Source of the DNA: Escherichia phage vB_EcoM_ESCO25
Reading direction: 5' to 3' (one strand)
Sequence record: OM386656.1
Length of the DNA stretch: 64,000 bases
The position numbers and the translations under genes were made by a program. The notes under the pieces were generated by a model, which saw only the letters and a program-made list of their open reading frames with translations, did not search any database and was not told where the DNA came from. Shown one piece after another: positions 4,113 to 55,248 of this stretch (its first letter is position 1; every line of letters begins with the position of its first letter).

Positions 4113-4391
4113 TTAAAATGGTTCGTTAGTCTCCATCATATATTCTGCTTCTAGTTCTTCCATGTGCTTTCTAAATTGGAAAGCAATTTCTGCTACAGTT
4201 ACATTTAAATCTTTTTCAAAAACTTCTGTAGATCCTTCATAAAAACGAATACCGTCAATTAAAAGCCCTCCGTGGTAATCCCAATCGCTTTCACGAGAAA
4301 GTGGATTAGGTTCTTCATAATAGTAATCCACCTCCACGACCAAGGCTTTCCCGTTACGAGTGGTGTATTCAAAATCAAAAGTGTTAATCAT
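4113..4391 (-). CDS. hypothetical protein
   Basis: 92 aa ORF, co-oriented and abutting neighbours. Confidence 0.5.
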   Translation of the reverse strand: MINTFDFEYTTRNGKALVVEVDYYYEEPNPLSRESDWDYHGGLLIDGIRFYEGSTEVFEKDLNVTVAEIAFQFRKHMEELEAEYMMETNEPF

Positions 4392-5335
4392 TATAGCTCC
4401 TCAAATAAAAGTCTACGACGCTCATTCAACACATCAATGTGATAATGAGTCCTGACATACTTAGCTAATGCTAATCCTTTCTCCATGCAAACATCGGGAG
4501 CACTTAATAAGTATTCCGTAATATCTTTCCACTCGGAAGGTGTTTCAGCAAAGAATAACAAATCTTTAAACTCTTGTGTATGATAATTCTCACGAGGAGA
4601 GCAGATTAAAGGTAAACCCTTAGCACCTGCCTCAAGAATTTTAAGATTGCTTTTTGCATTATTAAACACGTTATCGATCAATGGTGCAAGACTGATTTGA
4701 TGACCATCGTAAGATTCCATGTAGTTGGCATATGGTCTTACACCTTCATAAACACAAGTTGGTGCTACATTTTCCCTGATTAAAGACCATTCACGACTAC
4801 TTAAAACTTCAGAATCCCTACGAAAACCACATATTGTAAGATCTTTACCAAAATCGGGCAAGATAGCCAAATCTTGTTTATGTGTTTCACTTCCAGCCCA
4901 GACTAATGGAGTTTTGGAGTAGCGATCACGGGTCAACACAAATTGACCTTCATCGTAAGGAAGTCCATTAGGGATTATGTGCACATTATCATTGTATTGT
5001 GAAAGTTCAACTTGCAAGGCAGGTGTCGTAGTTGTAACAAGATCACTGTGCTCTAAAAACCATTTTAAATGTTCACGAATACCTGATTCAAAAATACCTT
5101 CTAACATGTGTCCTTTTGGAATAACTAAAGAGTCATCCAAATCCATAACCATTTTAAAGCCCAGGTTTTTAAGGGCTAAAAAGCCCTCTTTACCTTTTGT
5201 TGGCACTCCGTTAAAAACGAAAACGTTGTGTTTAGGTTGTGAAGAGAACTGCCTTGAGTAAGGCAGCACTACCCTATGGAAATCGCAGACACTATAATTG
5301 ATTCCGTTACGATTGTCAAGAATTATTTGTCCCAT
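4391..5335 (-). CDS. glycosyltransferase (GT-B-like C-terminal motif)
   Basis: 314 aa; C-terminal NLKILEAGAKGLPLICS resembles the GT4 family E-x7-E/EAG motif; paralog of 5343..6291. Confidence 0.55.
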   Translation of the reverse strand: MGQIILDNRNGINYSVCDFHRVVLPYSRQFSSQPKHNVFVFNGVPTKGKEGFLALKNLGFKMVMDLDDSLVIPKGHMLEGIFESGIREHLKWFLEHSDLVTTTTPALQVELSQYNDNVHIIPNGLPYDEGQFVLTRDRYSKTPLVWAGSETHKQDLAILPDFGKDLTICGFRRDSEVLSSREWSLIRENVAPTCVYEGVRPYANYMESYDGHQISLAPLIDNVFNNAKSNLKILEAGAKGLPLICSPRENYHTQEFKDLLFFAETPSEWKDITEYLLSAPDVCMEKGLALAKYVRTHYHIDVLNERRRLLFEEL

Positions 5336-5342
5336 ACTTCAC

Positions 5343-6291
5343 CTACAAACTTTCAATAACCTGGCGTCGCAATTCGTTTGCATCTGCCAGATTATAATGT
5401 GTTCGAACATGTTCCGCTAAGAACAAGCCGCGATCTTCCCGATAGTTCGGATTTCGAAGAAGCTTAACAATTTCGTAATGCCATTCTGCTTTATTCTCTG
5501 CATAAGCAACAGCGCGAGCATCTACAGGGTTAAAATAAGGTAATACCTTAGAACAAACAATCGGAATACCTTTTGCCCCCAGCTTCAAGGATTTTGAGAT
5601 TACTTTTACAATTATTAAAATCATTATCTACCAAAGGAGCTATAGCAATAGCATGACTTTCGTAAACACTCATGTAATTATCTAAATCTTTTACAGCAGC
5701 TTTATATTTGGCATTTGGTAAATTTCTACGGATCTTAATCCACTCTTGCCCTGTGATACTCTGCGATGCTTCATATCCTGCAATAGTAAGAAGTTCATCA
5801 TCGAAAGTATTAGAGACTAGTCGTAAATCGGGTTCGTGACTAGCACCGCCAGCCCATACAACAGGGGTACCGGATGAACGATCATTTGACAAAGTGAATT
5901 GTCCGCTATCAAAAGGAAGTGCATTTCGGATCACAACAACATTCCTATTTAAGTGACGGATCTTATATGCCAAATATTCCGTAGTCACAATGACCACATC
6001 GGCAAGCTTAACCATAGCTACAATAGCATGAGTGTTTGACTCATATAAACTTGCTAAATAATGTTCTGGATTAAGTTGGTAGAAATCATCTAAATCTACA
6101 ACAATCTTAACACCTTGACGTTTCAGGGACAGAACATATTCTGCCCCTTTAGAATGAATACGGTTAAACACGACAACATCTTTCTTAGGCTGAAAATTAT
6201 TGTTGTTAAATGGTATAACAATACGATGATAATCACAACCACTGTGAGGTTTTGCATCAATTTTCAGTTTAGTCCATTTTTTATTTGACAT
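5343..6291 (-). pseudogene. glycosyltransferase paralog interrupted by a frameshift (two overlapping ORFs 5548..6330 and 5343..5624)
   Basis: N-part ends ...NLKILEAGGKRYSDCLF*; C-part in another frame reads KLGAKGIPIVCSKVLPYFNPVDARAVAYAE...HVRTHYNLADANELRRQVIESL, colinear with the C-terminus of paralog 4391..5335 (...AKYVRTHYHIDVLNERRRLLFEEL). Confidence 0.5.
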
Positions 6292-6964
6292 GTGCCAGTG
6301 CCTCCTCATAAGAAATTCGGATTTTCCCATTTTTAATATCTTCTAAAGACGCTTTATATTCTTCCCAGTTAATGCCAATAGCAGCTTCTTTCTCTTCTTT
6401 TGTCAGATTAGCAAAAGGCATAGGATTGTTTCCAAAAACATCGTCTGGGTGGATATAAGCCATGATACGAAGTGGACAAGGTATTGCCTGAATGCCCTGA
6501 TTCAAACCAGCAGCTTTCAAACGGTGTACCCATTCAGCATCTTCAAAACCATAGCCGTGAGTGTAAGGGCGGAAATAACCCATCTTCTCAACAACGGCAC
6601 GAGAATACATTGCAAATTGACACATTGCAAGTTCCCAGAGAATAACTTCTCCTTTACTCCCAACAACTTTATCTTTGAAATACTCCGGCATACCAAAGAA
6701 ATCCCATCCTCCAGAGACAGCTTGATCTACAAAATATGTTTCCCATCCCTCCATGATTGGGTAGCAATCGTCGTCAAAAATAAACCAATAATCATAACCT
6801 TCTTCATAAAACTGGTGCATAAGTTCATTCCTGGCGTAAGCTACACCTTTACGATCTGGATCGTTGAATACTCGAAAATCTGCATGTGGATCTGTTACAA
6901 GATAGTCTTTAAGTGGACGGACACCTACAGTGATAACACCCACTCCGATTTTAATATTTTCCAT
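6281..6964 (-). CDS. glycosyltransferase, GT-A fold (DDD motif)
   Basis: 227 aa; YWFIFDDDCYP acidic motif typical of GT-A nucleotide-sugar transferases. Confidence 0.5.
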   Translation of the reverse strand: MENIKIGVGVITVGVRPLKDYLVTDPHADFRVFNDPDRKGVAYARNELMHQFYEEGYDYWFIFDDDCYPIMEGWETYFVDQAVSGGWDFFGMPEYFKDKVVGSKGEVILWELAMCQFAMYSRAVVEKMGYFRPYTHGYGFEDAEWVHRLKAAGLNQGIQAIPCPLRIMAYIHPDDVFGNNPMPFANLTKEEKEAAIGINWEEYKASLEDIKNGKIRISYEEALAHVK

Positions 6965-6972
6965 TTTCTCTC

Positions 6973-7536
6973 CTAGATAGTTTTACTGTGATCGTGACAG
7001 TGTAATAAATGATGTATAGACCGTTGAGGATTTGTTTGACCTAATCTGTAAATGTGAAACAGATACATTCCCCGCATCAATCCTAACCTTTTTCCTTTTT
7101 CATGTAAAGTGCGAGAGAAAATTAGGTCGAATTGGATAGATTTTTCTTCGAAAGGAATTTCATTCCACAATGATTTTCTAAAAAGCAAAAAGAAACCTGC
7201 CAGAGGTGTTCCGAAAGGAACTTCTTCAACACTCACTTTATGATATTCTCTTGCAATCTTAGCATATTCTATATGGTTTAGAATATTTGGATCATCGTTA
7301 ATTTGGTTAGAGAAAAGCTGATAACCACTACCTAACCTGTTACAAGTTGCACCTATTACATCAAAAGGCGGGTTTGACATAATAAGCTCTTCAAGCATAG
7401 ATGGTTGATCAGGCAGGAGGAACATTGTATCGGTATCTCTTAAGCACACCCAACTATCATCTGGAAGAACGGCAATAGCTTCATTGATAGCCTTGCCGAT
7501 ATTTCCTGTCAGATAGGGAGTAATATAATAAATCAT
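6973..7536 (-). CDS. hypothetical protein, possible GT-A glycosyltransferase (DTD motif)
   Basis: 187 aa; VCLRDTDTMF DxD-like motif. Confidence 0.4.
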   Translation of the reverse strand: MIYYITPYLTGNIGKAINEAIAVLPDDSWVCLRDTDTMFLLPDQPSMLEELIMSNPPFDVIGATCNRLGSGYQLFSNQINDDPNILNHIEYAKIAREYHKVSVEEVPFGTPLAGFFLLFRKSLWNEIPFEEKSIQFDLIFSRTLHEKGKRLGLMRGMYLFHIYRLGQTNPQRSIHHLLHCHDHSKTI

Positions 7537-8791: not shown

Positions 8792-8820
8792 AGTATAACA
8801 CGATAGAGGCTTTATTGCAA
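8792..8820 (-). promoter_or_regulatory. sigma70-like promoter (TTGCAA-N17-TATACT) for the SleB-like gene
   Basis: Minus-strand TTGCAA (8820-8815), 17-nt spacer, TATACT (8797-8792). Confidence 0.5.
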
Positions 8821-8841
8821 GAGGGGGACTTCTCCCCCCTC
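8821..8841 (-). terminator. GC-rich stem-loop after terD (possible terminator or processing site)
   Basis: GAGGGGGA-cttc-TCCCCCCTC inverted repeat directly after the terD stop; weak T-tract. Confidence 0.4.
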
Positions 8842-8859
8842 AAAATCATTTGTTAATTA

Positions 8860-9462
8860 TTATGGACATTCATACCATTCTTTTTTACCACCGAAGGCCA
8901 TCACCACATCGCAAATATCCAGACCAGCTTTACCTACACCATATGCTTTCAGCTTCCATTCTCCATCTTCACGAACCAGGGAAGCCACGTGGCAGATTGT
9001 GTTGCCAGCTACTTCAGGAGCCAGGAAGTCAAAATCCAGAATTTCCACATTGCGCTCGGAGTCGAAGATTTTAAGCATACCTTCAGAAGCATGACCAAAA
9101 CGTTTCAGACCTGTATCATCATCAATGGTCAGAACAAAGGCAATCTCTTGTGCATCAGGAGAGATTTTAGCCAGAGTAATATCAATCTGCTCCATGCTGC
9201 CAGTTCCATCACGAACATCGTCACCAGCGAAGGTAGAACGTTCAGGATCAAACTTGTTAGCATAGCAAACCAGATGACGTGCAGACAGCATTTCAGGATT
9301 GCCAGCGGCATTGTGACGACAAACCAGTGCACTTACATCCAGATCCAGTTTAGAATCAGATTTCCAAGAGAATTCCAGACGCAGTTCTTTCAGAGCCGGA
9401 GCAACTTTCTTCAGGGAAATTTTTTCGCTAGAACCTTTTTTCAGGGAAATTTTATCAGTCAT
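8860..9462 (-). CDS. terD: TerD-family stress protein
   Basis: 200 aa; N-terminal KISLKK repeats, then LDLDVSAL, GDDVRDGTG, EIAFVLTIDD and REDGEWKLKAYGVGKAGL matching the TerD/TerE/TerZ fold signature. Confidence 0.8.
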   Translation of the reverse strand: MTDKISLKKGSSEKISLKKVAPALKELRLEFSWKSDSKLDLDVSALVCRHNAAGNPEMLSARHLVCYANKFDPERSTFAGDDVRDGTGSMEQIDITLAKISPDAQEIAFVLTIDDDTGLKRFGHASEGMLKIFDSERNVEILDFDFLAPEVAGNTICHVASLVREDGEWKLKAYGVGKAGLDICDVVMAFGGKKEWYECP

Positions 9463-9477
9463 CTTTTGTCTCCTCTA

Positions 9478-9747
9478 TTATTTAAGTGTAATACCAGTTA
9501 CAGTCAATTCTACTTCCAAAAGCTTAGATGTGTTTTGGATTGATACTAATTGTGCATGATGGTTTAGTTCTACAGCAGAATAATCATTTTCCCCATCATC
9601 TACTTTTAAATAAACAATGATTTCACTAAGGTCTAAACCATTTTCGTCAAATGCATTTTCATAGACGAAAGTATCTCCTACATCCAAATCTTTAATGGTA
9701 AGGCATCGTTTATTTACTTTTTGCTCATCAATTTCGAAGTTTAACAC
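9478..9747 (-). CDS. hypothetical protein, paralog of 10769..11065
   Basis: 89 aa; shares DLDVGDTFVYENAFDENGLD and C-terminal LEVELTVTGITLK with 10769..11065 (DLGIGATFMYYDAYEDAGLD, VEVDLEVTNITLK). Confidence 0.55.
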   Translation of the reverse strand: MLNFEIDEQKVNKRCLTIKDLDVGDTFVYENAFDENGLDLSEIIVYLKVDDGENDYSAVELNHHAQLVSIQNTSKLLEVELTVTGITLK

Positions 9748-9976
9748 TTCTTCCTCCTAATGTTATCTCCGGTTTGTATATACGAAGAATTATAGCATTT
9801 TCATTTTCTTTGTCAACCCATTCTTCATAATCAGGCCATACATGAATCTCTACTCTACTTACAATATCTTCCATTCGCACAGTCCCAATGAAATACTCTT
9901 TGAGACTGCGCATAATGAAAGCTTCTCTCTCGCGCCAATAATTTTCTATGACTTGAGAGGCAAGCTCGTCGATCAT
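9728..9976 (-). CDS. hypothetical protein
   Basis: 82 aa ORF in operon. Confidence 0.5.
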   Translation of the reverse strand: MIDELASQVIENYWREREAFIMRSLKEYFIGTVRMEDIVSRVEIHVWPDYEEWVDKENENAIILRIYKPEITLGGRSVKLRN

Positions 9977-10767
9977 TTTTTAGCACCTACTTTAACAACC
10001 CACTCTCCGAACTCTTCAGATAAGAGTTTGTCATAAAGCTCTGAATCTGTCAAGTCTAAATCTTTAATGCCAATAAAACCAACATTATCATAAGCATTTG
10101 CCAGTTCTTTCAGGAAGCCAAACTTCTCATTACCAACGCCAACCATGAACCAATAAATAGGTTTATTCTTATTCTCTTCAATAAGACGACGAACAGCACT
10201 AGGATCACCATTCTCACCATCCGTCTGGAAGAATACAACACCAGGGGTAACGTCAGCACCTGGTTCAGACACAGCTACAACCTTTTCACGCTCTACAGAT
10301 ACTGTTTCAGTTTTACCAAGCAGACGATTAAAGAAGCCTTTCTTTGGAGCCTCCTCTTGTACCACTTGTTTAGTGGTAATATATTTGGTAACAGTGCCAA
10401 AATACTCATCGTAGATATCTGCCATTACAGGGGCGTAATTTGTTCCACCTCCGATACGAACATTGCGCATACATTTACCAACATAGTCATCGTAAACGTC
10501 TGCTGTTGCTGGAGTAAGCTCTTGGGAACTCGTATTGAAGGCCCACATATCAATTTGTTGATTATCGTCGAACAGCATACCAAAAGGAAGCAGTTTACCT
10601 ACAAAATCACTCACTACCCCACTAGAATATAGACCATGCATACTACCAGAAATATCTAGAGCACATGCTACACGAAGAACAATCTTACCTTCATTCAGGT
10701 TCTTATTCTTTTTCAGAGAGAAAGCAAGGTTTTCTTGACGTTTTTTCAGGCTGATTTTCTCGGACAT
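9973..10767 (-). CDS. von Willebrand factor A (vWA) domain protein, TerY-like, with TerD-like ISLKK N-terminus
   Basis: 264 aa; N-terminal KISLKK...FSLKK, then a MIDAS-type ACALDISGSM (DxSxS), GGGTNYAPVM and VVFFQTDGENG. Confidence 0.7.
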   Translation of the reverse strand: MSEKISLKKRQENLAFSLKKNKNLNEGKIVLRVACALDISGSMHGLYSSGVVSDFVGKLLPFGMLFDDNQQIDMWAFNTSSQELTPATADVYDDYVGKCMRNVRIGGGTNYAPVMADIYDEYFGTVTKYITTKQVVQEEAPKKGFFNRLLGKTETVSVEREKVVAVSEPGADVTPGVVFFQTDGENGDPSAVRRLIEENKNKPIYWFMVGVGNEKFGFLKELANAYDNVGFIGIKDLDLTDSELYDKLLSEEFGEWVVKVGAKK

Positions 10768-10768
10768 A

Positions 10769-11065
10769 TTATTTCTCCTTCTTAAGTGTAATATTGGTAA
10801 CTTCTAAATCTACTTCCACCATATTTGTATCTGGCGGGATGCAATGAGTATAGCCTCGTTGTGCTAGTGATCCATTAATACAGATCGCACTGTTTGTGGA
10901 ATTTTTAATGAACACCAAGTTACGGTAGGTATCCAACCCTGCGTCTTCATAGGCATCATAATACATGAATGTGGCCCCTATGCCAAGATCTTCGAAAGCA
11001 ATAGGTAAATCCTGACACTTTTCTTCTTGAATATTGAATCTAAACACGCATACCTCCTCTACCAA
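10769..11065 (-). CDS. hypothetical protein, paralog of 9478..9747
   Basis: 98 aa; see paralog motifs above. Confidence 0.5.
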   Translation of the reverse strand: MVEEVCVFRFNIQEEKCQDLPIAFEDLGIGATFMYYDAYEDAGLDTYRNLVFIKNSTNSAICINGSLAQRGYTHCIPPDTNMVEVDLEVTNITLKKEK

Positions 11066-11603
11066 TTTTGAAGCCCAAATCGTAAGCTTCTTTAGTGATC
11101 TTTTGCAACTCGCTTATAGGAAGTGTTACAAGAGGATCATCTTCTTCAATTTCCATCTTGTCATCTTCTGTTTCAATGAGAGTATTATGCACTTTATGAT
11201 AAGGGTTGTCAACACGTTTAAACTTATTCTTTTCTGTGCTGAAGAAACAATCTGGATCTTCTTCACCATCACCCCAACCTTGATTAGGATCTCTGTCAGA
11301 TTGTTCTGTAGGGATCTCACCTGTAAAGTACTCTTCCAGCACCATAGCGATGCCGTCCCTTGGATTTGAGGAATGCATCAAATCACAAACCTTACTCCAA
11401 TCCATAGCCCAGTCGAACCGTTCACGAACGCCATTTTCATCCTCTTTTCCAGAGAAAACACAACCATAACTATCATAGTTGCCATACATCTCTTCAATAA
11501 CAACACCGTCCTTCAAAAGAAAGAGGTAGCAAGGTGATCCGTCGAAAGAAGTAGAAAGGGCAGCTTTGCCCGATTCTTTGCACAAAAAGCTAAAACAACC
11601 CAT
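11040..11603 (-). CDS. hypothetical acidic protein
   Basis: 187 aa ORF; Asp/Glu-rich. Confidence 0.5.
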   Translation of the reverse strand: MGCFSFLCKESGKAALSTSFDGSPCYLFLLKDGVVIEEMYGNYDSYGCVFSGKEDENGVRERFDWAMDWSKVCDLMHSSNPRDGIAMVLEEYFTGEIPTEQSDRDPNQGWGDGEEDPDCFFSTEKNKFKRVDNPYHKVHNTLIETEDDKMEIEEDDPLVTLPISELQKITKEAYDLGFKIGRGGMRV

Positions 11604-11806
11604 TACAAACCCTCCTTCAGATTATCAAGAGCTACAGTGGTTTCACAAAATTCTCCATAAGCTTTATGATGTTCCAGAAAAGCTTCGGGTCCACCCCAAT
11701 CATTGTCTTGTGTATTCCAGCCATCAATAAAAGCATCTTCAATGATTGTGATCAGTTCTTGTCGGGTTAACTGGATAATATTAGGGTCGTTATCGTAGTT
11801 AAACAT
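11603..11806 (-). CDS. hypothetical protein
   Basis: 67 aa ORF. Confidence 0.45.
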   Translation of the reverse strand: MFNYDNDPNIIQLTRQELITIIEDAFIDGWNTQDNDWGGPEAFLEHHKAYGEFCETTVALDNLKEGL

Positions 11807-11972
11807 CCTCTTCCTCCTCTAAAATATGGAACCCGTAATTACAATAGTCCTGAAAGGTTTCGTGTGCAAGATCTTCTATATCCTCTTGAGACATATCATC
11901 TTCAATTTCGATATCCACAACCTCATTGCATCCACACCAAGCAGTTTCAATATTCACTCGTAATATTTTCAT
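11799..11972 (-). CDS. hypothetical small protein (57 aa), not on ORF track
   Basis: Manual translation MKILRVNIETAWCGCNEVVDIEIEDDMSQEDIEDLAHETFQDYCNYGFHILEEEDV; start overlaps the upstream stop as TAATG with a GAGGAGG RBS; fills an otherwise unexplained gap. Confidence 0.4.
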   Translation of the reverse strand: MKILRVNIETAWCGCNEVVDIEIEDDMSQEDIEDLAHETFQDYCNYGFHILEEEEDV

Positions 11973-12169
11973 TACTCCTCCTCCTCATTGAAGTCAATAT
12001 CTGCAAGGAGTTCGAATTTACGGAAGTTACGACAACCTTCATAAATATAACAATCACGACAAACTGCTAGAACACTTGGGGGATATATGCCTCCCATCGG
12101 CGCGAATCGTTTTTCGTCATCATAACGGACACCAATGTCCTCATCAATTATATAGATACGGATTCTCAT
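11972..12169 (-). CDS. hypothetical protein (Cys-containing)
   Basis: 65 aa ORF. Confidence 0.45.
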   Translation of the reverse strand: MRIRIYIIDEDIGVRYDDEKRFAPMGGIYPPSVLAVCRDCYIYEGCRNFRKFELLADIDFNEEEE

Positions 12170-13278
12170 TTACCAAGCCCTCGTTTCACAGCAGCTACCA
12201 TCCCGTCTTCCAAAGATTGAACTTCATTAATATAATCAACACGAGCAGCACGGGCTTCCGTATTGATGCGGTTAGTTTCTTCCAACATCTTAACCAAGTT
12301 TTCCTGATCGTGACGCAGAGTTTCAATATCCAACACTTGACGGTTAGCCAGTGCTGCTGCTTCGATCTGATTCTGTGTGGCAAGATCGCTACCCAGTTTA
12401 ATTGCCAGGTTAAATTCATCAAGAACGTTATTCTGCGTCTCTGCTGCTTTCATTTGACGTAAGCTCTCGATATACATTGAGAAGTTAGCAGAGTAAGCAG
12501 GAATAACATTATTTACTATGTTACGCGCAGATCGCATTAAGCTTGCAGAAACTTTTTGCATACCTTGTACACGCGGTCCCATTTGGACACACAGTAGGCG
12601 CAATGCTTTTAAATCTGCAATACGAATCTCCAGAAGATCCAAAGTATCTCGGATCACTTGTCGCTGTTCTACTGCATCTTCTGGAAGAGCAGCCAAAGCT
12701 TGTTCTTCTTTTTCATAGGTTGCTGTTAGAAGCTGCATATCTCGGTTCAAACTTGCAGCATATTGTCCAATAGCTTGATGTAGCTTTTCAAGATATACCA
12801 AGGAATCTTCTTCTTTGCGAATATCCATTTGAAGGTTTTTTACCAACTCTTCAATACGGTTATTAACATTATCAAACTCCCCAAACAGATCTTCTTTCAT
12901 ACCCATAACTTTTTTAATGAGTTTAGTAATACCCTTGCTTTGTTTAATAGAGTTTGGATCAAGTTGTTTTGCCTGTTTAATCAAAGCTGTGAGTCGTTCA
13001 CTCATCTGATCGCCTTGATTACTACGTTGATGTTTTAATACCTCGGCATTCAAGGAACGCAAGGTTGTTCCTGCCTCTGCCCCAATCTCTTCGATCTCCT
13101 GTCGGGTCATAGAAGGCAAAACTGGAACTTCTTGCGGTGCCGCTGGTGCATAAACAGGACTGGCATCTAACACGCTTGGAGCGAATACAGATTTACTTGC
13201 ATCTGTTGTTGCAGCAAATACGCTCATTTCAGGTTTCTTCTGACAGCCAGTAGCTGCTTTTAAAAATGGACTTGTCAT
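12166..13278 (-). CDS. TelA-like toxic-anion-resistance family protein
   Basis: 370 aa, predicted all-helical; N-terminal EIEEIGAEAGTTLRSLNAEVLKHQRSNQGDQMSERLTALIKQAKQLDP parallels the conserved TelA/KlaA N-terminal block. Confidence 0.6.
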   Translation of the reverse strand: MTSPFLKAATGCQKKPEMSVFAATTDASKSVFAPSVLDASPVYAPAAPQEVPVLPSMTRQEIEEIGAEAGTTLRSLNAEVLKHQRSNQGDQMSERLTALIKQAKQLDPNSIKQSKGITKLIKKVMGMKEDLFGEFDNVNNRIEELVKNLQMDIRKEEDSLVYLEKLHQAIGQYAASLNRDMQLLTATYEKEEQALAALPEDAVEQRQVIRDTLDLLEIRIADLKALRLLCVQMGPRVQGMQKVSASLMRSARNIVNNVIPAYSANFSMYIESLRQMKAAETQNNVLDEFNLAIKLGSDLATQNQIEAAALANRQVLDIETLRHDQENLVKMLEETNRINTEARAARVDYINEVQSLEDGMVAAVKRGLGK

Positions 13279-13865
13279 TCTTCATTCTCCTCTTCTGCAT
13301 CTCTTATATATGGTGAAACACCGTACTCTTTAGCTACTTTAACCCAATCGTCCCATTTATACAACCATAATTTTCCTTCGGTCCCTTCTTTATCTGATTT
13401 CAACCACATATTAGGTTGCTTACCTGGGTACATGCGATTAGGTTTACGATTATAACCTCTAACACATCTTGTCGCAAACCTATCTACCAGAACAAGAACA
13501 TATTTATATTCGTGGTTCAACGGCTCTTTGGAAGTGGCTTTAGGATTAGCCCCTAACTCTGCTGCCAGTTTTTGCCAATGAGCACCGTGTCTACTAAACT
13601 TACCCATACAACCATCAATAGCATGAGCAATTTCGTGCTTCATTGTATCCACGATCATATCTCTTGTAGAGTTCTTATGCAAGTGCCAATTTACAACAAC
13701 AATTTTATCTCGGTAGTTGCACCAACCGAAAGAGTTATTCACTTTGTTTCTAACACAAGCTTTATATCCTGCTTCACGTAACATGTTGTAGTAAACAGGA
13801 AAATCTTCTTTTATTTCCTGCATCACTTCCCACCACAAGAGTTGCAAGTCTCTCTCGGTATACAT
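13275..13865 (-). CDS. SprT-like zinc metallopeptidase domain protein
   Basis: 196 aa; HExxH motif MKHEIAHAIDGCMGKFSRHGAHW with an SprT-like N-terminal region. Confidence 0.55.
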   Translation of the reverse strand: MYTERDLQLLWWEVMQEIKEDFPVYYNMLREAGYKACVRNKVNNSFGWCNYRDKIVVVNWHLHKNSTRDMIVDTMKHEIAHAIDGCMGKFSRHGAHWQKLAAELGANPKATSKEPLNHEYKYVLVLVDRFATRCVRGYNRKPNRMYPGKQPNMWLKSDKEGTEGKLWLYKWDDWVKVAKEYGVSPYIRDAEEENEE

Positions 13866-13868
13866 AAC

Positions 13869-14462
13869 TTACACCTTAAAAGTGAAATGCGTGGTCGTGG
13901 TTTCAAAATCAGGACCAGATAAACGTGCACTGAAATCTGAAATATTTGTAATTAAAAAGCTTTTATGCATACCTAACACAGCTACGCTTTCAATATCTTC
14001 TACTAACATTTCAATCATGTTAGAAACATGGCTGAACGTAGAGTTTTGTTTTTTGATGGTGTAGAAAGAAAGATTCCCACCTGCTGTATAAGATACCTCT
14101 TCAAAATCTTTAATGGTATATTGTGTGCCATCAGTAAAGAAAATGGTAGCTTTATTAGTAGCACGTTTCTTGTTTTTTGGTCCTTTTTTACGTTTACTGC
14201 GAGTAGGCAAACCGTTTGGGAACACCATAGCTACAAATTCTTCAGCAGAAACCTCCTTACCGAAATCATAACCATAAGAAACAGCGTCTATAAACTCGTC
14301 ATCTTCATTTTTAAAATAATGGAAATAGGGCCAATTTGAAAGATTATCAAGCATCTTATGCTCGTCCACAGCAGAGAATGTATCCCTCAAAGCGCGTGTG
14401 ATTTGCAAAGCATTAGGCAACCTTTTAACACCTACGATGGAAGTACGAATAGAAATTGTCAT
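13869..14462 (-). CDS. hypothetical protein
   Basis: 197 aa ORF. Confidence 0.5.
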   Translation of the reverse strand: MTISIRTSIVGVKRLPNALQITRALRDTFSAVDEHKMLDNLSNWPYFHYFKNEDDEFIDAVSYGYDFGKEVSAEEFVAMVFPNGLPTRSKRKKGPKNKKRATNKATIFFTDGTQYTIKDFEEVSYTAGGNLSFYTIKKQNSTFSHVSNMIEMLVEDIESVAVLGMHKSFLITNISDFSARLSGPDFETTTTHFTFKV

Positions 14463-14476
14463 TGTTTTTCTCCTTA

Positions 14477-14914
14477 TTAACGTCGCTTGCTACGAGATGA
14501 ACTCTTTTTACTTAAAGGGCTATTGTAAGATTTACGAGTTGTATAGCTACTATTTGTTTTAAAAGTTTGTCTCGGCTTTTCATAAGTTTTTATCTCTTGT
14601 TTAGGCTTACTATAAAAATTAGTTTTCGGTTTAGGTGTATTATAATGCTTATTAATAATCGTTCTGTTATCGTTATAATCCCCACTGCTACGATTACTAC
14701 CGCCACTCATCATATGCCCTAACAACATACCTGTAGCAAACTCACCAACACCGCTACTACTAGAACCGCCACCATTGTTGATAATAGTTGTATCTCCGTC
14801 AGATCCTTGTTGAGCGTATTGTTGAGGAGGTTGTTGGTATTGTGCAGGATTTGTCTCATCCTCGCAAGCTGTTAAAAAGATACAACCAATTAAAATCAGG
14901 GCTAGTTTTTTCAT
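14477..14914 (-). CDS. lipoprotein, low-complexity Q/G/S-rich
   Basis: Start trimmed to MKKLALILIGCIFLTAC (lipobox LTAC); the remainder is Gln/Gly/Ser/Lys-rich. Confidence 0.6.
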   Translation of the reverse strand: MKKLALILIGCIFLTACEDETNPAQYQQPPQQYAQQGSDGDTTIINNGGGSSSSGVGEFATGMLLGHMMSGGSNRSSGDYNDNRTIINKHYNTPKPKTNFYSKPKQEIKTYEKPRQTFKTNSSYTTRKSYNSPLSKKSSSRSKRR

Positions 14915-15101
14915 ATTTGCTTTCCTCGTTTTGGCTATTAATACATCTGTGTTTGAAATCTCCAGAGAAGCAATAAAGTTGCTCTCCATCTCGGTATAAA
15001 CTCACTTTACTGCCGTTGATTACGCTTGTCAATACAAAAATTACAACAAACAACCCTATTGCAAAACAAATATTTTCAAACACAACCAACAAGTATTTCA
15101 T
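14856..15101 (-). CDS. possible small membrane protein
   Basis: 81 aa ORF with hydrophobic N-terminus LLVVFENICFAIGLFVVIFVLTSVI; overlaps the lipoprotein start, so uncertain. Confidence 0.35.
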   Translation of the reverse strand: MKYLLVVFENICFAIGLFVVIFVLTSVINGSKVSLYRDGEQLYCFSGDFKHRCINSQNEESKYEKTSPDFNWLYLFNSLRG

Positions 15102-15448
15102 TTTAAAAATACCTCATCATCAGTTTCATTATCCCAGAAGAACAAGTCCCAACCATTCGGATCATTCCATTTAGCTGCTGGAGAAGTCCATATTTGCTCG
15201 ATATCAATATTCAAAACTTCACCGTTTCGTTTTGAAACAGCTTTAGTTAATTCCCAACGGGATACAGGCTCCACTTCCCCTGAACCACTCCCACAACAAG
15301 CTACCACATTAGGAGGCAAATTAATTGGATCTTTGGTCACGATCATAACGCTTACCCCAGGGTAAACTTTTGAAAGATAATCTAAAACGTAATCCACATC
15401 ACCAGATAAATCCCAAACAAGTTCTTGAATTTCATCAAAATTACTCAT
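15098..15448 (-). CDS. hypothetical protein
   Basis: 116 aa ORF; RBS aggagag. Confidence 0.5.
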   Translation of the reverse strand: MSNFDEIQELVWDLSGDVDYVLDYLSKVYPGVSVMIVTKDPINLPPNVVACCGSGSGEVEPVSRWELTKAVSKRNGEVLNIDIEQIWTSPAAKWNDPNGWDLFFWDNETDDEVFLK

Positions 15449-15454
15449 AAGTCT

Positions 15455-15484
15455 CTCCTATAAAATAGCCTCCCGAAGGAGGCT
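15455..15484 (-). terminator. intrinsic terminator after terC
   Basis: AGCCTCC-cgaa-GGAGGCT hairpin (15467-15484), followed on the minus strand by TATTTTATA. Confidence 0.55.
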
Positions 15485-15490
15485 CATTTA

Positions 15491-16465
15491 TTAAACAGTA
15501 GCTTCTTCTTTTTCAGGGAAGATAAAGCTTGCAATAACACCAAGAGATAATGTGCCTAGAACAATCATCAGACTTACGTTAGGGGAAATATCATGCGGGA
15601 GGAATGACCACTTGGCATGAAGTGTTTCACCGAACGGGTGATACATAAGTTTAGCACCAACAAACACCAGAACCACAGCAACAGCTTTCTCTAAGTGAAC
15701 CAGATATTTCACAGCTACACTTAACACAAAGAAAAGTGCACGTAAACCAAGAACAGCCATCAGCATTGCAGAATAAACTAGCAGAGGTTCTTGTGTCACA
15801 CCGATCACAGCCGGAACTGAATCAAAAGAGAAGACAATATCTGTAAGCTCAATAACAAACACACAAAGAAGAGCAGGAGTTGCATATTTAATACCATTCT
15901 TAATGGTGATGAACTTTTCACCATCCAGTGCATTGTGCACAGGCAGAACTTTACCTACTAAACGAACAGCCCAATGTTTAGAGTAATCAATATCCTCTTC
16001 TTTGTCACCACCTTTGATGATAGCCACGGCAGACCAAGCTACAATCAAACCGAACAACACTTGGACCGACCAATGAAGGTTAAACAAAGCGGTCCCTGCT
16101 GCAACAAAAATACCTCGGAAGACAATGGCTCCTGCAATCCCCCAAAGTAGAATCTTATGTTGGAGATGTGTGCTCTTAATTCCAAAGCTTGCAAAAATTG
16201 CCATGAACACCATTAGGTTATCTACAGAAAGACTCTTTTCCAACACATAGCCACTTAGGAAAAGCGCGGCAAACTCTTTACCATGTTCTACCCAAATGAA
16301 TGCGTAATACCCTAAAGCTAAAGCAATCCAAAAAACAGACCAAAGCAAAGCAGATTTAATTCCAATTTCTTTATTCTCTTTATGACCAAAGAAATCGATA
16401 CCAATAGACAATGCTAAAATACCAACTAAAACAACTACATCAATAATTGGGAAACCGAGTTGCAT
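15491..16465 (-). CDS. terC: TerC-family integral membrane protein
   Basis: 324 aa, multiple transmembrane helices; LSGYVLEKSLSVDNLMVFMAIF and downstream helices match the TerC/Alx signature (LSxDNxxVF). Confidence 0.8.
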   Translation of the reverse strand: MQLGFPIIDVVVLVGILALSIGIDFFGHKENKEIGIKSALLWSVFWIALALGYYAFIWVEHGKEFAALFLSGYVLEKSLSVDNLMVFMAIFASFGIKSTHLQHKILLWGIAGAIVFRGIFVAAGTALFNLHWSVQVLFGLIVAWSAVAIIKGGDKEEDIDYSKHWAVRLVGKVLPVHNALDGEKFITIKNGIKYATPALLCVFVIELTDIVFSFDSVPAVIGVTQEPLLVYSAMLMAVLGLRALFFVLSVAVKYLVHLEKAVAVVLVFVGAKLMYHPFGETLHAKWSFLPHDISPNVSLMIVLGTLSLGVIASFIFPEKEEATV

Positions 16466-16482
16466 TCTTTTCTCCTCTCTTT

Positions 16483-54488: not shown

Positions 54489-54707
54489 ATGAAAACATCT
54501 ATTCGCGTGAAACATGATCCGAACAGCAGTTACCCATACGTGTATGTTGAACGTCATGAAGGGGACTATTACACCATAAAACGTAAAGTCCCAACTGATA
54601 CAGGGTTTAACTTTGATGTTATTGCGCTGGATGATCAAGGTGTTGATAATCTGGTGAATGCATTACTCGCATTGAAGGAAGTACGATATGAAAATCAGAC
54701 TAATTGA
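54489..54707 (+). CDS. hypothetical protein
   Basis: 72 aa ORF; RBS aaggaga. Confidence 0.5.
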   Translation: MKTSIRVKHDPNSSYPYVYVERHEGDYYTIKRKVPTDTGFNFDVIALDDQGVDNLVNALLALKEVRYENQTN

Positions 54708-54879
54708 AAAGGGTGATACCATCTTCGAAACCCGTAAAGGTGAAATCACAGAGGTTCCAGAAGAAAGATCAACAATTCTTGTCGATGGTGTTTTGAAATA
54801 TTGCTGTAGTGTCTATAAATCTTACGAGAAGGATCAGTATGGCGATCCAGAAATCTGGTTTGTAGGTGATGTGTATTAA
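54688..54879 (+). CDS. hypothetical small protein
   Basis: 63 aa ORF. Confidence 0.45.
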   Translation: MKIRLIEKGDTIFETRKGEITEVPEERSTILVDGVLKYCCSVYKSYEKDQYGDPEIWFVGDVY

Positions 54880-54888
54880 GGGGGTAAA

Positions 54889-55248
54889 ATGAGCGGAGAA
54901 TTTCGTAAAGTAAAAGATATCTCCCTCTTTGAGGGAGACGTTGTTCGGATCAATGGGAGATTGTTAAAATTTCACCAGTTGATGTATCCAAGTACATCTC
55001 GTAATGTGATGGTGATCTTCCAGGACGCTTTTGCTGCAAGCGATTACACTCCGTATTCAGCAGAAACTGAAGTATATTTTGAAGGATATGTTGATCGACC
55101 ACTTGCAAAAGAGATGTGGGACAAGTATCATATAAACATTACAGATTCACAGGGTGTCTTCTGGAACTACCCTAGTGAAGGTAAGATGGCTTTCGATTCT
55201 TGTGATCGTTTAGCCGAAGAGATTGCCGAATGGCGTGATACTCACTAA
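54889..55248 (+). CDS. hypothetical protein
   Basis: 119 aa ORF. Confidence 0.5.
   Translation: MSGEFRKVKDISLFEGDVVRINGRLLKFHQLMYPSTSRNVMVIFQDAFAASDYTPYSAETEVYFEGYVDRPLAKEMWDKYHINITDSQGVFWNYPSEGKMAFDSCDRLAEEIAEWRDTH

What the first reader, a model, noticed from the sequence alone, without database searches (positions are those of the whole stretch)
5343..6330. Frameshift splitting one of two paralogous glycosyltransferase genes
ORFs 5548-6330 and 5343-5624 together are colinear with the intact paralog 4391-5335 but lie in different frames with about 80 nt of overlap. This is either a genuine pseudogene, a sequencing or assembly indel, or a programmed frameshift or phase-variable switch.
Basis: seen in the sequence. 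Interest (0 to 1): 0.45.

Follow-up and report, generated by a model that had tools for sequence, protein, structure and literature searches.

The report
One-base frameshift in phage glycosyltransferase
One of two sister glycosyltransferase genes in this phAPEC8-like E. coli phage is broken by a single extra G found in no related genome, so it is an ordinary fresh mutation or a sequencing error, not a programmed frameshift.

Summary
The window is a Phapecoctavirus (phAPEC8-like) E. coli phage. On the minus strand, the gene at 5343-6291 is split by one extra G in a G-run. The mRNA reads GCU GGG GGC AAA, and the + strand has C5 at 5576-5580.

The closest relatives aligned (AV125, ukendt, ESCO13) have G4 there and an intact 948-nt, 315-aa gene. 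None of 133 related phage records matches the junction exactly, and all 60 listed are one base shorter. Removing one G gives a gene identical in every base to that of phage AV125.

The G5 allele was absent from every collection searched. It is also the only frame-breaking indel in an annotated gene across about 60 kb compared with phage ESCO13.

The protein is a GT-B fold, GT4-like glycosyltransferase. The shift falls in an invariant LEAGAKG helix of the C-terminal domain and removes 77 residues, so the 247-aa product is very probably inactive.

No feature of programmed frameshifting or phase variation is present.

Verdict: a private, very recent one-base insertion. A real loss-of-function mutation (0.55) is slightly favoured over a consensus error (0.38), and only the reads can decide. 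Interest is low.

The parts
5343..6291 (-). Frameshifted glycosyltransferase gene. It is the ortholog of ESCO13 HOR21_gp232, ukendt JR326_gp218 and AV125 WPK37846. It is 949 nt here and 948 nt (315 aa) in those relatives.
   Evidence: Searches give the annotated intact orthologs. One search shows that removing one G gives a 948-nt ORF with 0 differences to AV125. One search gives phrog_7162 over the full length, E 5.8e-149.
5576..5580 (-). Homopolymer holding the extra base: C5 on the + strand, G5 in the mRNA (GCU GGG GGC AAA AGG). The three closest relatives aligned have G4 (GCU GGG GCA AAA GGU, reading A-G-A-K-G).
   Evidence: alignment with AV125 and ukendt. (indel list against ESCO13 and AV125). 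(133 records, none 100% identical, and all 60 listed span 80 nt against 81).
5548..6291 (-). The reading frame actually translated from the true start. It gives a 247-aa truncated product ending ...LEAG-GKRYSDCLF*. The last 9 residues are out of frame and the premature TAA is at 5548-5550.
5343..5575 (-). Stranded C-terminal coding remainder (residues 239-315 of the intact protein), now in the +1 frame. The only in-frame ATG is at 5624. It has no Shine-Dalgarno sequence and would add about 16 junk residues.
6301..6305 (-). Ribosome-binding site GGAGG, 9 nt upstream of the ATG at 6291.
   Evidence: sequence. (ESCO13 record annotates an RBS at the equivalent place).
4391..5335 (-). Intact paralog (314 aa), 43% identical, in the same PHROG family.
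6281..6964 (-). Upstream 227-aa glycosyltransferase (phrog_2456, DDD motif). Its stop overlaps the start of the broken gene by 11 nt. It is the conserved partner of phrog_7162 genes in prophages.
6973..7536 (-). Fourth glycosyltransferase of the cassette (187 aa, phrog_14179).

Best explanation
The gene at 5343-6291 (minus strand) encodes a 315-aa GT-B fold, GT4-like glycosyltransferase. It is one of a tandem pair of paralogs inside a four-glycosyltransferase cassette that is conserved in phAPEC8-like and phi92-like phages. In this genome a single G has been inserted into a G4 run, most simply by replication slippage. Translation from the true start now leaves the frame after Gly238, reads 9 wrong residues and stops at 5548-5550. 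This gives a 247-aa protein. It lacks the end of the invariant LEAGAKG helix, the last two strands of the C-terminal Rossmann domain and the C-terminal helices (77 residues). The product is therefore very probably inactive, and the gene as written is a brand-new pseudogene that is private to this isolate. The intact paralog and the dispensability of accessory genes in laboratory culture would let such a mutant persist. Shown: the one-base insertion, its uniqueness, its recency, the fold, and the position of the break. Inferred: that the base is really in the phage DNA rather than a consensus error, that the truncated enzyme is dead, and that the phage tolerates the loss.
For: The indel is a single base, G5 against G4. 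None of 133 related phage records matches the 81-nt junction exactly, and all 60 listed span 80 nt. By tblastn, 140 of 143 records carry at least 80% of the protein in one place. About 120 homologs found in the metagenome and genome protein search are nearly all 300-340 aa and cover 95% or more of the query. The G5 allele is absent from the genome and metagenome contig collections and from complete E. coli genomes, and a two-allele pattern scan of IMG/VR returned nothing at all. The truncated products are not on record in public assemblies. The repaired gene has 0 nt differences to AV125. Against ESCO13 it has 26 synonymous and 3 non-synonymous codon differences, so the gene is under purifying selection and shows no decay after the break. 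This is the only annotated CDS split by a frameshift across about 60 kb compared with ESCO13. All other indels are intergenic, in-frame or compensated. None of the window's longer runs (72 A/T 6-runs, 3 A/T 7-runs) is disturbed in a gene. That pattern argues against a generally homopolymer-error-prone assembly. The AlphaFold model has pLDDT 94.7 and matches GT4 retaining enzymes BshA, GlgM, PglA, MshA, TarM and SdgB at probability 1.0. The break falls in helix 232-239. Invariant residues S247, Y252, V295, R296, Y299, N305 and R308 lie downstream of it.
Against: No reads are available, so a single consensus error cannot be excluded. The allele is a singleton and shows zero further divergence, which is exactly what an artefact would also look like. 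Whether the gene is dispensable has not been tested. It is retained in essentially all relatives and is under purifying selection, so its loss should carry a cost in nature.
Confidence: 0.55

Rival explanations
1. Sequencing or assembly artefact. The phage really has G4 and an intact 315-aa gene, and the extra base is a homopolymer over-call in the consensus.
For: The allele is unique among 133 relatives and was not found in the other collections searched. The gene is otherwise identical in every base to AV125. The difference sits in a homopolymer. The gene is under purifying selection in the lineage.
Against: No other annotated gene in about 60 kb carries a frame-breaking indel, although the window contains 232 A/T 5-runs, 72 A/T 6-runs and 3 A/T 7-runs, all more error-prone than a 4-run. 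A technology that over-calls a G4 run would be expected to leave other such errors. The hit is in an accessory gene with a paralog, which is where a real mutation would survive.
Confidence: 0.38
2. Programmed +1 ribosomal frameshift, or transcriptional slippage, on GGG-G that yields the full-length enzyme. Alternatively, a phase-variable homopolymer switch that turns the gene on and off.
For: A P-site tRNA-Gly on GGG could re-pair perfectly one base downstream on the G5 run. The next codon would then be GCA, which recreates the exact wild-type protein (read from the sequence). Some low-level spontaneous slippage is therefore conceivable.
Against: The shifted arrangement is not conserved: no relative matches the junction exactly, all 60 listed are one base shorter, and the three closest relatives aligned carry the in-frame G4 allele. 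The A-site codon is GGC (from my own knowledge an abundant Gly codon in E. coli), not a stop or rare codon. No separate Shine-Dalgarno-like element lies upstream at prfB-like spacing. The downstream RNA is no more structured than shuffles (z +0.93). A 4-5 base run is far shorter than known contingency tracts or transcriptional slippage sites, and no tract-length variation is seen in 60 listed relatives.
Confidence: 0.04
3. A functional split enzyme. The two ORFs are made as separate polypeptides that reassemble into an active GT-B glycosyltransferase, as Alg13/Alg14 do.
For: GT-B enzymes can work as two chains (Alg13/Alg14, from my own knowledge). Both pieces are still open reading frames.
Against: The break is not at the inter-domain linker. 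It lies inside a helix in the core of the C-terminal Rossmann domain. The second ORF has no Shine-Dalgarno sequence before its only ATG and would start with about 16 out-of-frame residues. No relative has the gene split at this position, and nearly all carry it as a single ORF.
Confidence: 0.01

Closest known systems
Intact orthologs in Phapecoctavirus genomes: AV125 WPK37846.1, ukendt YP_009986917.1 (JR326_gp218), ESCO13 YP_009786644.1 (HOR21_gp232), and the phAPEC8 homolog
   Same: Same locus, same neighbours and same length once one G is removed. There are 0 nt differences to AV125, 6 synonymous differences to ukendt, and 30 nt differences (3 amino acids) to ESCO13.
   Different: The window has G5 instead of G4 at 5576-5580, so the frame breaks after residue 238.
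GT4-family retaining GT-B glycosyltransferases with solved structures (BshA 3mbo, GlgM 6tvp, PglA 8dvz, MshA 3c4q, TarM, SdgB)
   Same: Two-Rossmann-domain GT-B fold, with Foldseek probability 1.0 and TM-score about 0.6. A conserved Glu-containing helix (LEAGAKG) sits at the position where I recall the GT4 E-x7-E donor-binding motif lying; that correspondence was not tested here.
   Different: Only 12-17% identity. The protein is shorter (315 against about 370 aa). There was no hit in the PDB by sequence, and Pfam scores are at or below the gathering thresholds. Donor, acceptor and stereochemistry are unknown.
Programmed +1 frameshift sites such as E. coli prfB (CUU UGA C with an upstream Shine-Dalgarno sequence)
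   Same: A +1 shift is what would be needed, and the P-site tRNA could re-pair on the run.
   Different: There is no conservation of the shifted arrangement, no stop or hungry codon in the A site, and no positioned stimulator. The site does not qualify.
Homopolymer-tract phase-variable (contingency) glycosyltransferase genes of Neisseria, Haemophilus and Campylobacter
   Same: A glycosyltransferase gene is interrupted at a G/C homopolymer.
   Different: The tract here is only 4-5 bases, against typically 8 or more (from my own knowledge). The tract length is invariant in 60 listed relatives.

Membership tests
PHROG 7162 phage glycosyltransferase (GT-B, GT4-like) | Full-length match to the family profile | tested here: met
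   The repaired protein, which is identical to the AV125 protein, matches phrog_7162 over profile positions 1-308 of 309 with E 5.8e-149. The paralog matches with E 2.9e-145.
PHROG 7162 phage glycosyltransferase (GT-B, GT4-like) | Pfam glycosyltransferase group 1 domain above the gathering score | tested here: inconclusive
   The ortholog scores 22.8 bits on Glyco_trans_1_4 (cut-off 27) and 20.7 bits on Glyco_trans_1_2 (cut-off 25). The paralog scores 25.2 bits on Glyco_trans_1_2 (cut-off 25). The two window fragments on their own hit nothing.
PHROG 7162 phage glycosyltransferase (GT-B, GT4-like) | GT-B fold: two Rossmann-like domains with C-terminal helices | tested here: met
   The AlphaFold2 model has pLDDT 94.7 and pTM 0.92. 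The top Foldseek PDB hits are GT4 enzymes at probability 1.0.
PHROG 7162 phage glycosyltransferase (GT-B, GT4-like) | Sugar-transfer activity, and the identity of donor and acceptor | not testable with these tools
   No paper found in the library describes the function of these genes in phAPEC8-like or phi92-like phages.
Programmed ribosomal frameshift site | The two-frame arrangement is conserved among relatives | tested here: not met
   None of 133 records has the G5 junction exactly and all 60 listed are one base shorter. 140 of 143 records carry at least 80% of the protein in one place. Nearly all homologs listed are full length.
Programmed ribosomal frameshift site | Slippery site combined with a slow A-site codon or stop, and a stimulatory element | tested here: not met
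   The sequence is GCU GGG GGC AAA. The A-site codon is GGC, not a stop. The 111 nt around and downstream of the site fold no better than shuffles, z +0.93.
Phase-variable simple-sequence contingency locus | A long homopolymer or repeat tract whose length varies among isolates | tested here: not met
   The tract is G5 here and G4 in the three closest relatives aligned. All 60 listed relatives have the same 80-nt junction length, so no length polymorphism is seen.
Naturally split GT-B enzymes (Alg13/Alg14 type) | The split lies at the domain boundary and each chain has its own translation start | tested here: not met
   The break is inside helix 232-239 of the C-terminal domain. The second ORF lacks a Shine-Dalgarno sequence.
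Decayed (old) pseudogene | Accumulated further disabling or non-synonymous changes after the first lesion | tested here: not met
   There are 0 nt differences to AV125 apart from the indel. Downstream of the break there are 4 synonymous and 1 non-synonymous differences against ESCO13. The lesion is very recent or not real.

The most novel reading that the evidence does not exclude
The G5 allele is real and was selected. Under this reading, knocking out one of the two paralogous GT-B enzymes changes the glycan built by the four-glycosyltransferase cassette. The core of that cassette is a GT-A plus GT-B pair that is also found next to terminase genes in Pseudomonas and Enterobacter prophages. 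The changed glycan would alter an uncharacterised phage glycosylation, of virion, DNA or host envelope, and with it host range or sensitivity to a defence system. This isolate would then be a natural knock-out for finding out what the cassette does.
Probability: 0.06. Interest if true: 0.4.

Novelty: already known. Interest (0 to 1): 0.08.

Why it matters
It matters little beyond annotation. The two ORFs should be annotated as one frameshifted gene (a pseudogene, or 'sequence to be verified') with its start at 6291, not as two proteins and not as a recoding site. If the insertion is real, it shows that one of the two paralogous glycosyltransferases of phAPEC8-like phages can be lost without killing the phage in culture. 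The isolate would then be a ready-made mutant for studying a conserved phage glycosyltransferase cassette whose function is still unknown.

Tried and rejected
- **Independent occurrences of the G5 allele.** I searched for it by exact pattern in genome contigs and metagenome contigs, by megablast in complete E. coli genomes, and with a pattern accepting G4 or G5 in IMG/VR. None was found. The IMG/VR scan returned nothing for either allele, so it is uninformative: L005, a close relative held there, matches a shorter version of the pattern with G4.
- **The truncated products in public assemblies.** I looked up three versions (247, 260 and 93 aa). None is on record.
- **PDB by sequence.** There was no hit even at E <= 1, so only fold comparison placed the protein.
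- **Literature on these genes.** Searches for Phapecoctavirus, phAPEC8, phi92 and Stephanstirmvirinae with glycosyltransferase or DNA modification gave no functional study.
- **A frameshift-stimulating RNA structure.** None was found.
- **A generally error-prone assembly.** I rejected this as a blanket explanation because no other annotated gene is frameshifted. It does not exclude one isolated error.
- **A weak TAGT hit on the neighbouring gene.** The neighbour also weakly hits the beta-glucosyl-HMC-alpha-glucosyltransferase PHROG. Both hits are below threshold and cover only about 40 residues around the DxD region, so I did not take them as evidence for DNA glycosylation.

Full report
**What the window is.** The region and its flanks match phAPEC8-like phages (genus Phapecoctavirus, subfamily Stephanstirmvirinae) at 95-99.9% identity. 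The first 25 kb are 99.2% identical to phage ESCO13. The 1.3 kb around the finding are 99.9% identical to phage AV125. All genes in this part of the window lie on the minus strand: primase/helicase, a small ORF, then four consecutive glycosyltransferase genes at 4391-5335, 5343-6291, 6281-6964 and 6973-7536, and further on the endolysin.

**Checking the observation.**
- Both are colinear with the intact paralog at 4391-5335. The 260-aa ORF aligns to paralog residues 14-239 (43% identity, E 6e-60). The 93-aa ORF aligns to residues 232-314 (39% identity, E 6e-16).
- The two frames are simultaneously open over 5551-5627, which is 77 nt.
- One correction is needed. The ATG at 6330 lies inside the upstream gene. 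The start used in all annotated relatives is the ATG at 6291 (MSNKKW...), which has GGAGG 9 nt upstream at 6301-6305.

**The lesion.** Alignment with AV125 and ukendt shows a single difference at the junction. The window reads GAA GCT GGG GGC AAA AGG where the relatives read GAA GCT GGG GCA AAA GGT (E-A-G-A-K-G). That is one extra G in a G4 run, seen as C5 on the + strand at 5576-5580. Translation from 6291 therefore leaves the frame after Gly238, reads GKRYSDCLF and stops at the TAA at 5548-5550. The product is 247 aa instead of 315 aa. Deleting one G restores a 948-nt ORF that is identical at every base to the AV125 gene.

**How unusual the allele is.**
- An 81-nt query across the junction found 133 phage records. 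None was 100% identical, and all 60 listed span 80 nt.
- A tblastn search with the intact protein found 143 records, and 140 of them carry at least 80% of the protein in one place. Most have two places per record, so the paralog pair is conserved in Phapecoctavirus and in phi92-like Justusliebigvirus.
- About 120 homologs listed from a database of 5.8 billion proteins are nearly all 300-340 aa and cover 95% or more of the query.
- IMG/VR relatives down to 28% identity mostly encode a single ORF.
- The exact G5 junction is absent from the genome and metagenome contig collections and from complete E. coli genomes. A scan of IMG/VR with a pattern accepting either allele returned nothing, so it adds no information.
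- The truncated products are not on record in public assemblies.
- The allele is therefore a singleton.

**Age and selection.** Against ESCO13 the repaired gene differs at 26 synonymous and 3 non-synonymous codons. Against ukendt it differs at 6 synonymous codons only. The gene is thus under purifying selection in the lineage. Nothing has decayed downstream of the break, so the insertion is either extremely recent or not real.

**Real mutation or consensus error?** I compared the whole window with ESCO13 and AV125.
- Over about 60 kb aligned to ESCO13, every other indel is intergenic, a multiple of three, or compensated within a few bases in a divergent patch.
- An ORF-by-ORF comparison covered 231 stop-to-stop ORFs. 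It flagged only this annotated gene as split by a frameshift. The other flags are unannotated antisense ORFs, plus one gene whose end lies at a mosaic breakpoint.
- The window holds 232 A/T runs of five, 72 of six and 3 of seven. None is disturbed in a gene, although a homopolymer-prone technology should err there before it errs in a 4-run.
- The lesion also sits in an accessory gene with a paralog, which is where a real frameshift can survive.
- These points tilt the balance towards a real mutation. They cannot exclude one isolated error, because no reads are available.

**What the gene encodes and what the break does.**
- The intact protein and its paralog both match PHROG 7162 ('glycosyltransferase') over the full length (E 5.8e-149 and 2.9e-145). 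Pfam group-1 glycosyltransferase domains are hit only weakly.
- An AlphaFold2 model built on 44 homologs is confident (pLDDT 94.7, pTM 0.92). It shows a GT-B fold.
- The best PDB matches by Foldseek are GT4 retaining enzymes: BshA, GlgM, sucrose-phosphate synthase, PglA, MshA, TarM and SdgB. Probability is 1.0, TM-score about 0.6 and identity 12-17%. Viral matches are generic 'glycosyl transferases group 1'.
- In the 44-sequence alignment the stretch K229-S-N-L-K-x-L-E-A-G238 is invariant and A239-K-G241 is nearly invariant. Residues S247, Y252, V295, R296, Y299, N305 and R308 downstream are also invariant.
- The frameshift falls after G238, inside helix 232-239. From my own knowledge this helix sits where the E-x7-E donor-binding motif of GT4 enzymes lies. 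The break removes two strands of the C-terminal Rossmann domain and the C-terminal helices.
- I infer that the 247-aa product is inactive. The stranded C-terminal ORF has no Shine-Dalgarno sequence before its only ATG and would begin with out-of-frame residues. A two-chain enzyme is therefore not credible.

**Programmed frameshift or phase variation.** Restoring the frame needs a +1 shift. A tRNA-Gly on GGG could re-pair one base downstream and the protein would be exactly wild type, so trace slippage is conceivable. Every defining feature of a programmed site fails, however.
- The arrangement is not conserved.
- The next codon is an ordinary GGC, not a stop.
- No structured RNA follows (z +0.93).
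- For phase variation, the tract is only 4-5 bases long and does not vary among the 60 listed relatives.

**Context, noticed in passing.** Bacterial homologs of the protein lie in prophages of Pseudomonas silvicola and Enterobacter huaxiensis. In both, the gene is preceded by an overlapping gene of about 215 aa that is 38-43% identical to the window's upstream 227-aa glycosyltransferase. The pair sits just upstream of the terminase genes, and in one case it follows a sugar-nucleotide epimerase/dehydratase. The GT-A-like plus GT-B pair is thus a conserved phage module of unknown target. I found no paper on its function.

**Verdict.** It is a private one-base insertion in a short G-run that disrupts a conserved accessory glycosyltransferase.
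- A genuine, very recent loss-of-function mutation: 0.55.
- A consensus error: 0.38.
- Recoding or phase variation: 0.04.
- A functional split enzyme: 0.01.

The gene should be annotated as a single frameshifted gene and the base verified against the reads.

Noticed in passing
window 6281-6964 and 5343-6291; L039 7357-8960; L040 7364-8921: A pair of overlapping genes is conserved between this lytic phage and prophages of Pseudomonas silvicola and Enterobacter huaxiensis. The pair is a GT-A-like protein of about 215-227 aa (phrog_2456, DDD motif) followed by a phrog_7162 GT-B protein of about 310 aa. In the prophages it sits just upstream of the terminase genes, and in L040 it follows an NAD-dependent sugar epimerase/dehydratase. 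The target of this two-enzyme module is unknown.
   Followed up: partly
window 6281-6964 (-): The 227-aa glycosyltransferase gives weak, sub-threshold hits to Pfam TAGT (TET-associated glycosyltransferase, E 0.0013) and to the PHROG of beta-glucosyl-HMC-alpha-glucosyltransferase (E 5e-6). Both hits cover only residues about 31-70. This may be a hint of DNA-base glycosylation or just generic GT-A similarity.
   Followed up: no
window 5200-6500 versus flanks: Mosaicism. The window is 99.4% identical to ESCO13 over 41 kb, but the glycosyltransferase stretch is only 97.5% identical to ESCO13. The same stretch is 99.4-99.9% identical to AV125, ukendt and ESCO5. This suggests a recombination patch over the GT cassette.
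   Followed up: no
window 54703-55178: About 475 nt are not aligned to ESCO13, lying between two otherwise colinear blocks. The homolog of ESCO13 gp013 matches only over its first 76 of 99 residues here. This is probably a replaced or inserted segment.
   Followed up: no
window 8820-8842: There is an intergenic G-run/C-run inverted repeat (GGGGG-ACTTCT-CCCCCC) between the endolysin gene and the TerE-like gene. Its run lengths differ by one base from AV125 on both arms. It looks like a terminator hairpin with natural homopolymer polymorphism.
   Followed up: no
phage records MG065650 (Campylobacter phage B15), MG065645 (A145), OP562383 (Acinetobacter phage ABPW7), MH252123 (Klebsiella phage ZCKP1): Records labelled with non-Escherichia hosts are 98-99.5% identical to E. 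coli Phapecoctavirus genomes in this region. The host labels may be doubtful, or the host range may be unusually broad.
   Followed up: no
phage records PP895363 (Klebsiella phage FKP3) and OQ031492 (MRostami-2023b); BFVD entries A0A7U0J6V0 (215 aa) and A0A653FZ62 (242 aa): A few other deposited relatives appear to carry broken or truncated copies of this glycosyltransferase. FKP3 matches in 3 tblastn pieces. In OQ031492 the match covers only residues 10-315 of the protein, and its 1,301-nt DNA match is one base shorter than in other relatives. The two BFVD family members are short. Occasional disruption, or mis-sequencing, of this gene is therefore not unique to the window.
   Followed up: no
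window 8860-16470 (-): By the annotation of ESCO13 and AV125, the phage carries tellurite-resistance-like genes (TerE/TerD-like, TelA-like and TerC-like membrane protein), followed by an anaerobic ribonucleotide reductase set.
   Followed up: no
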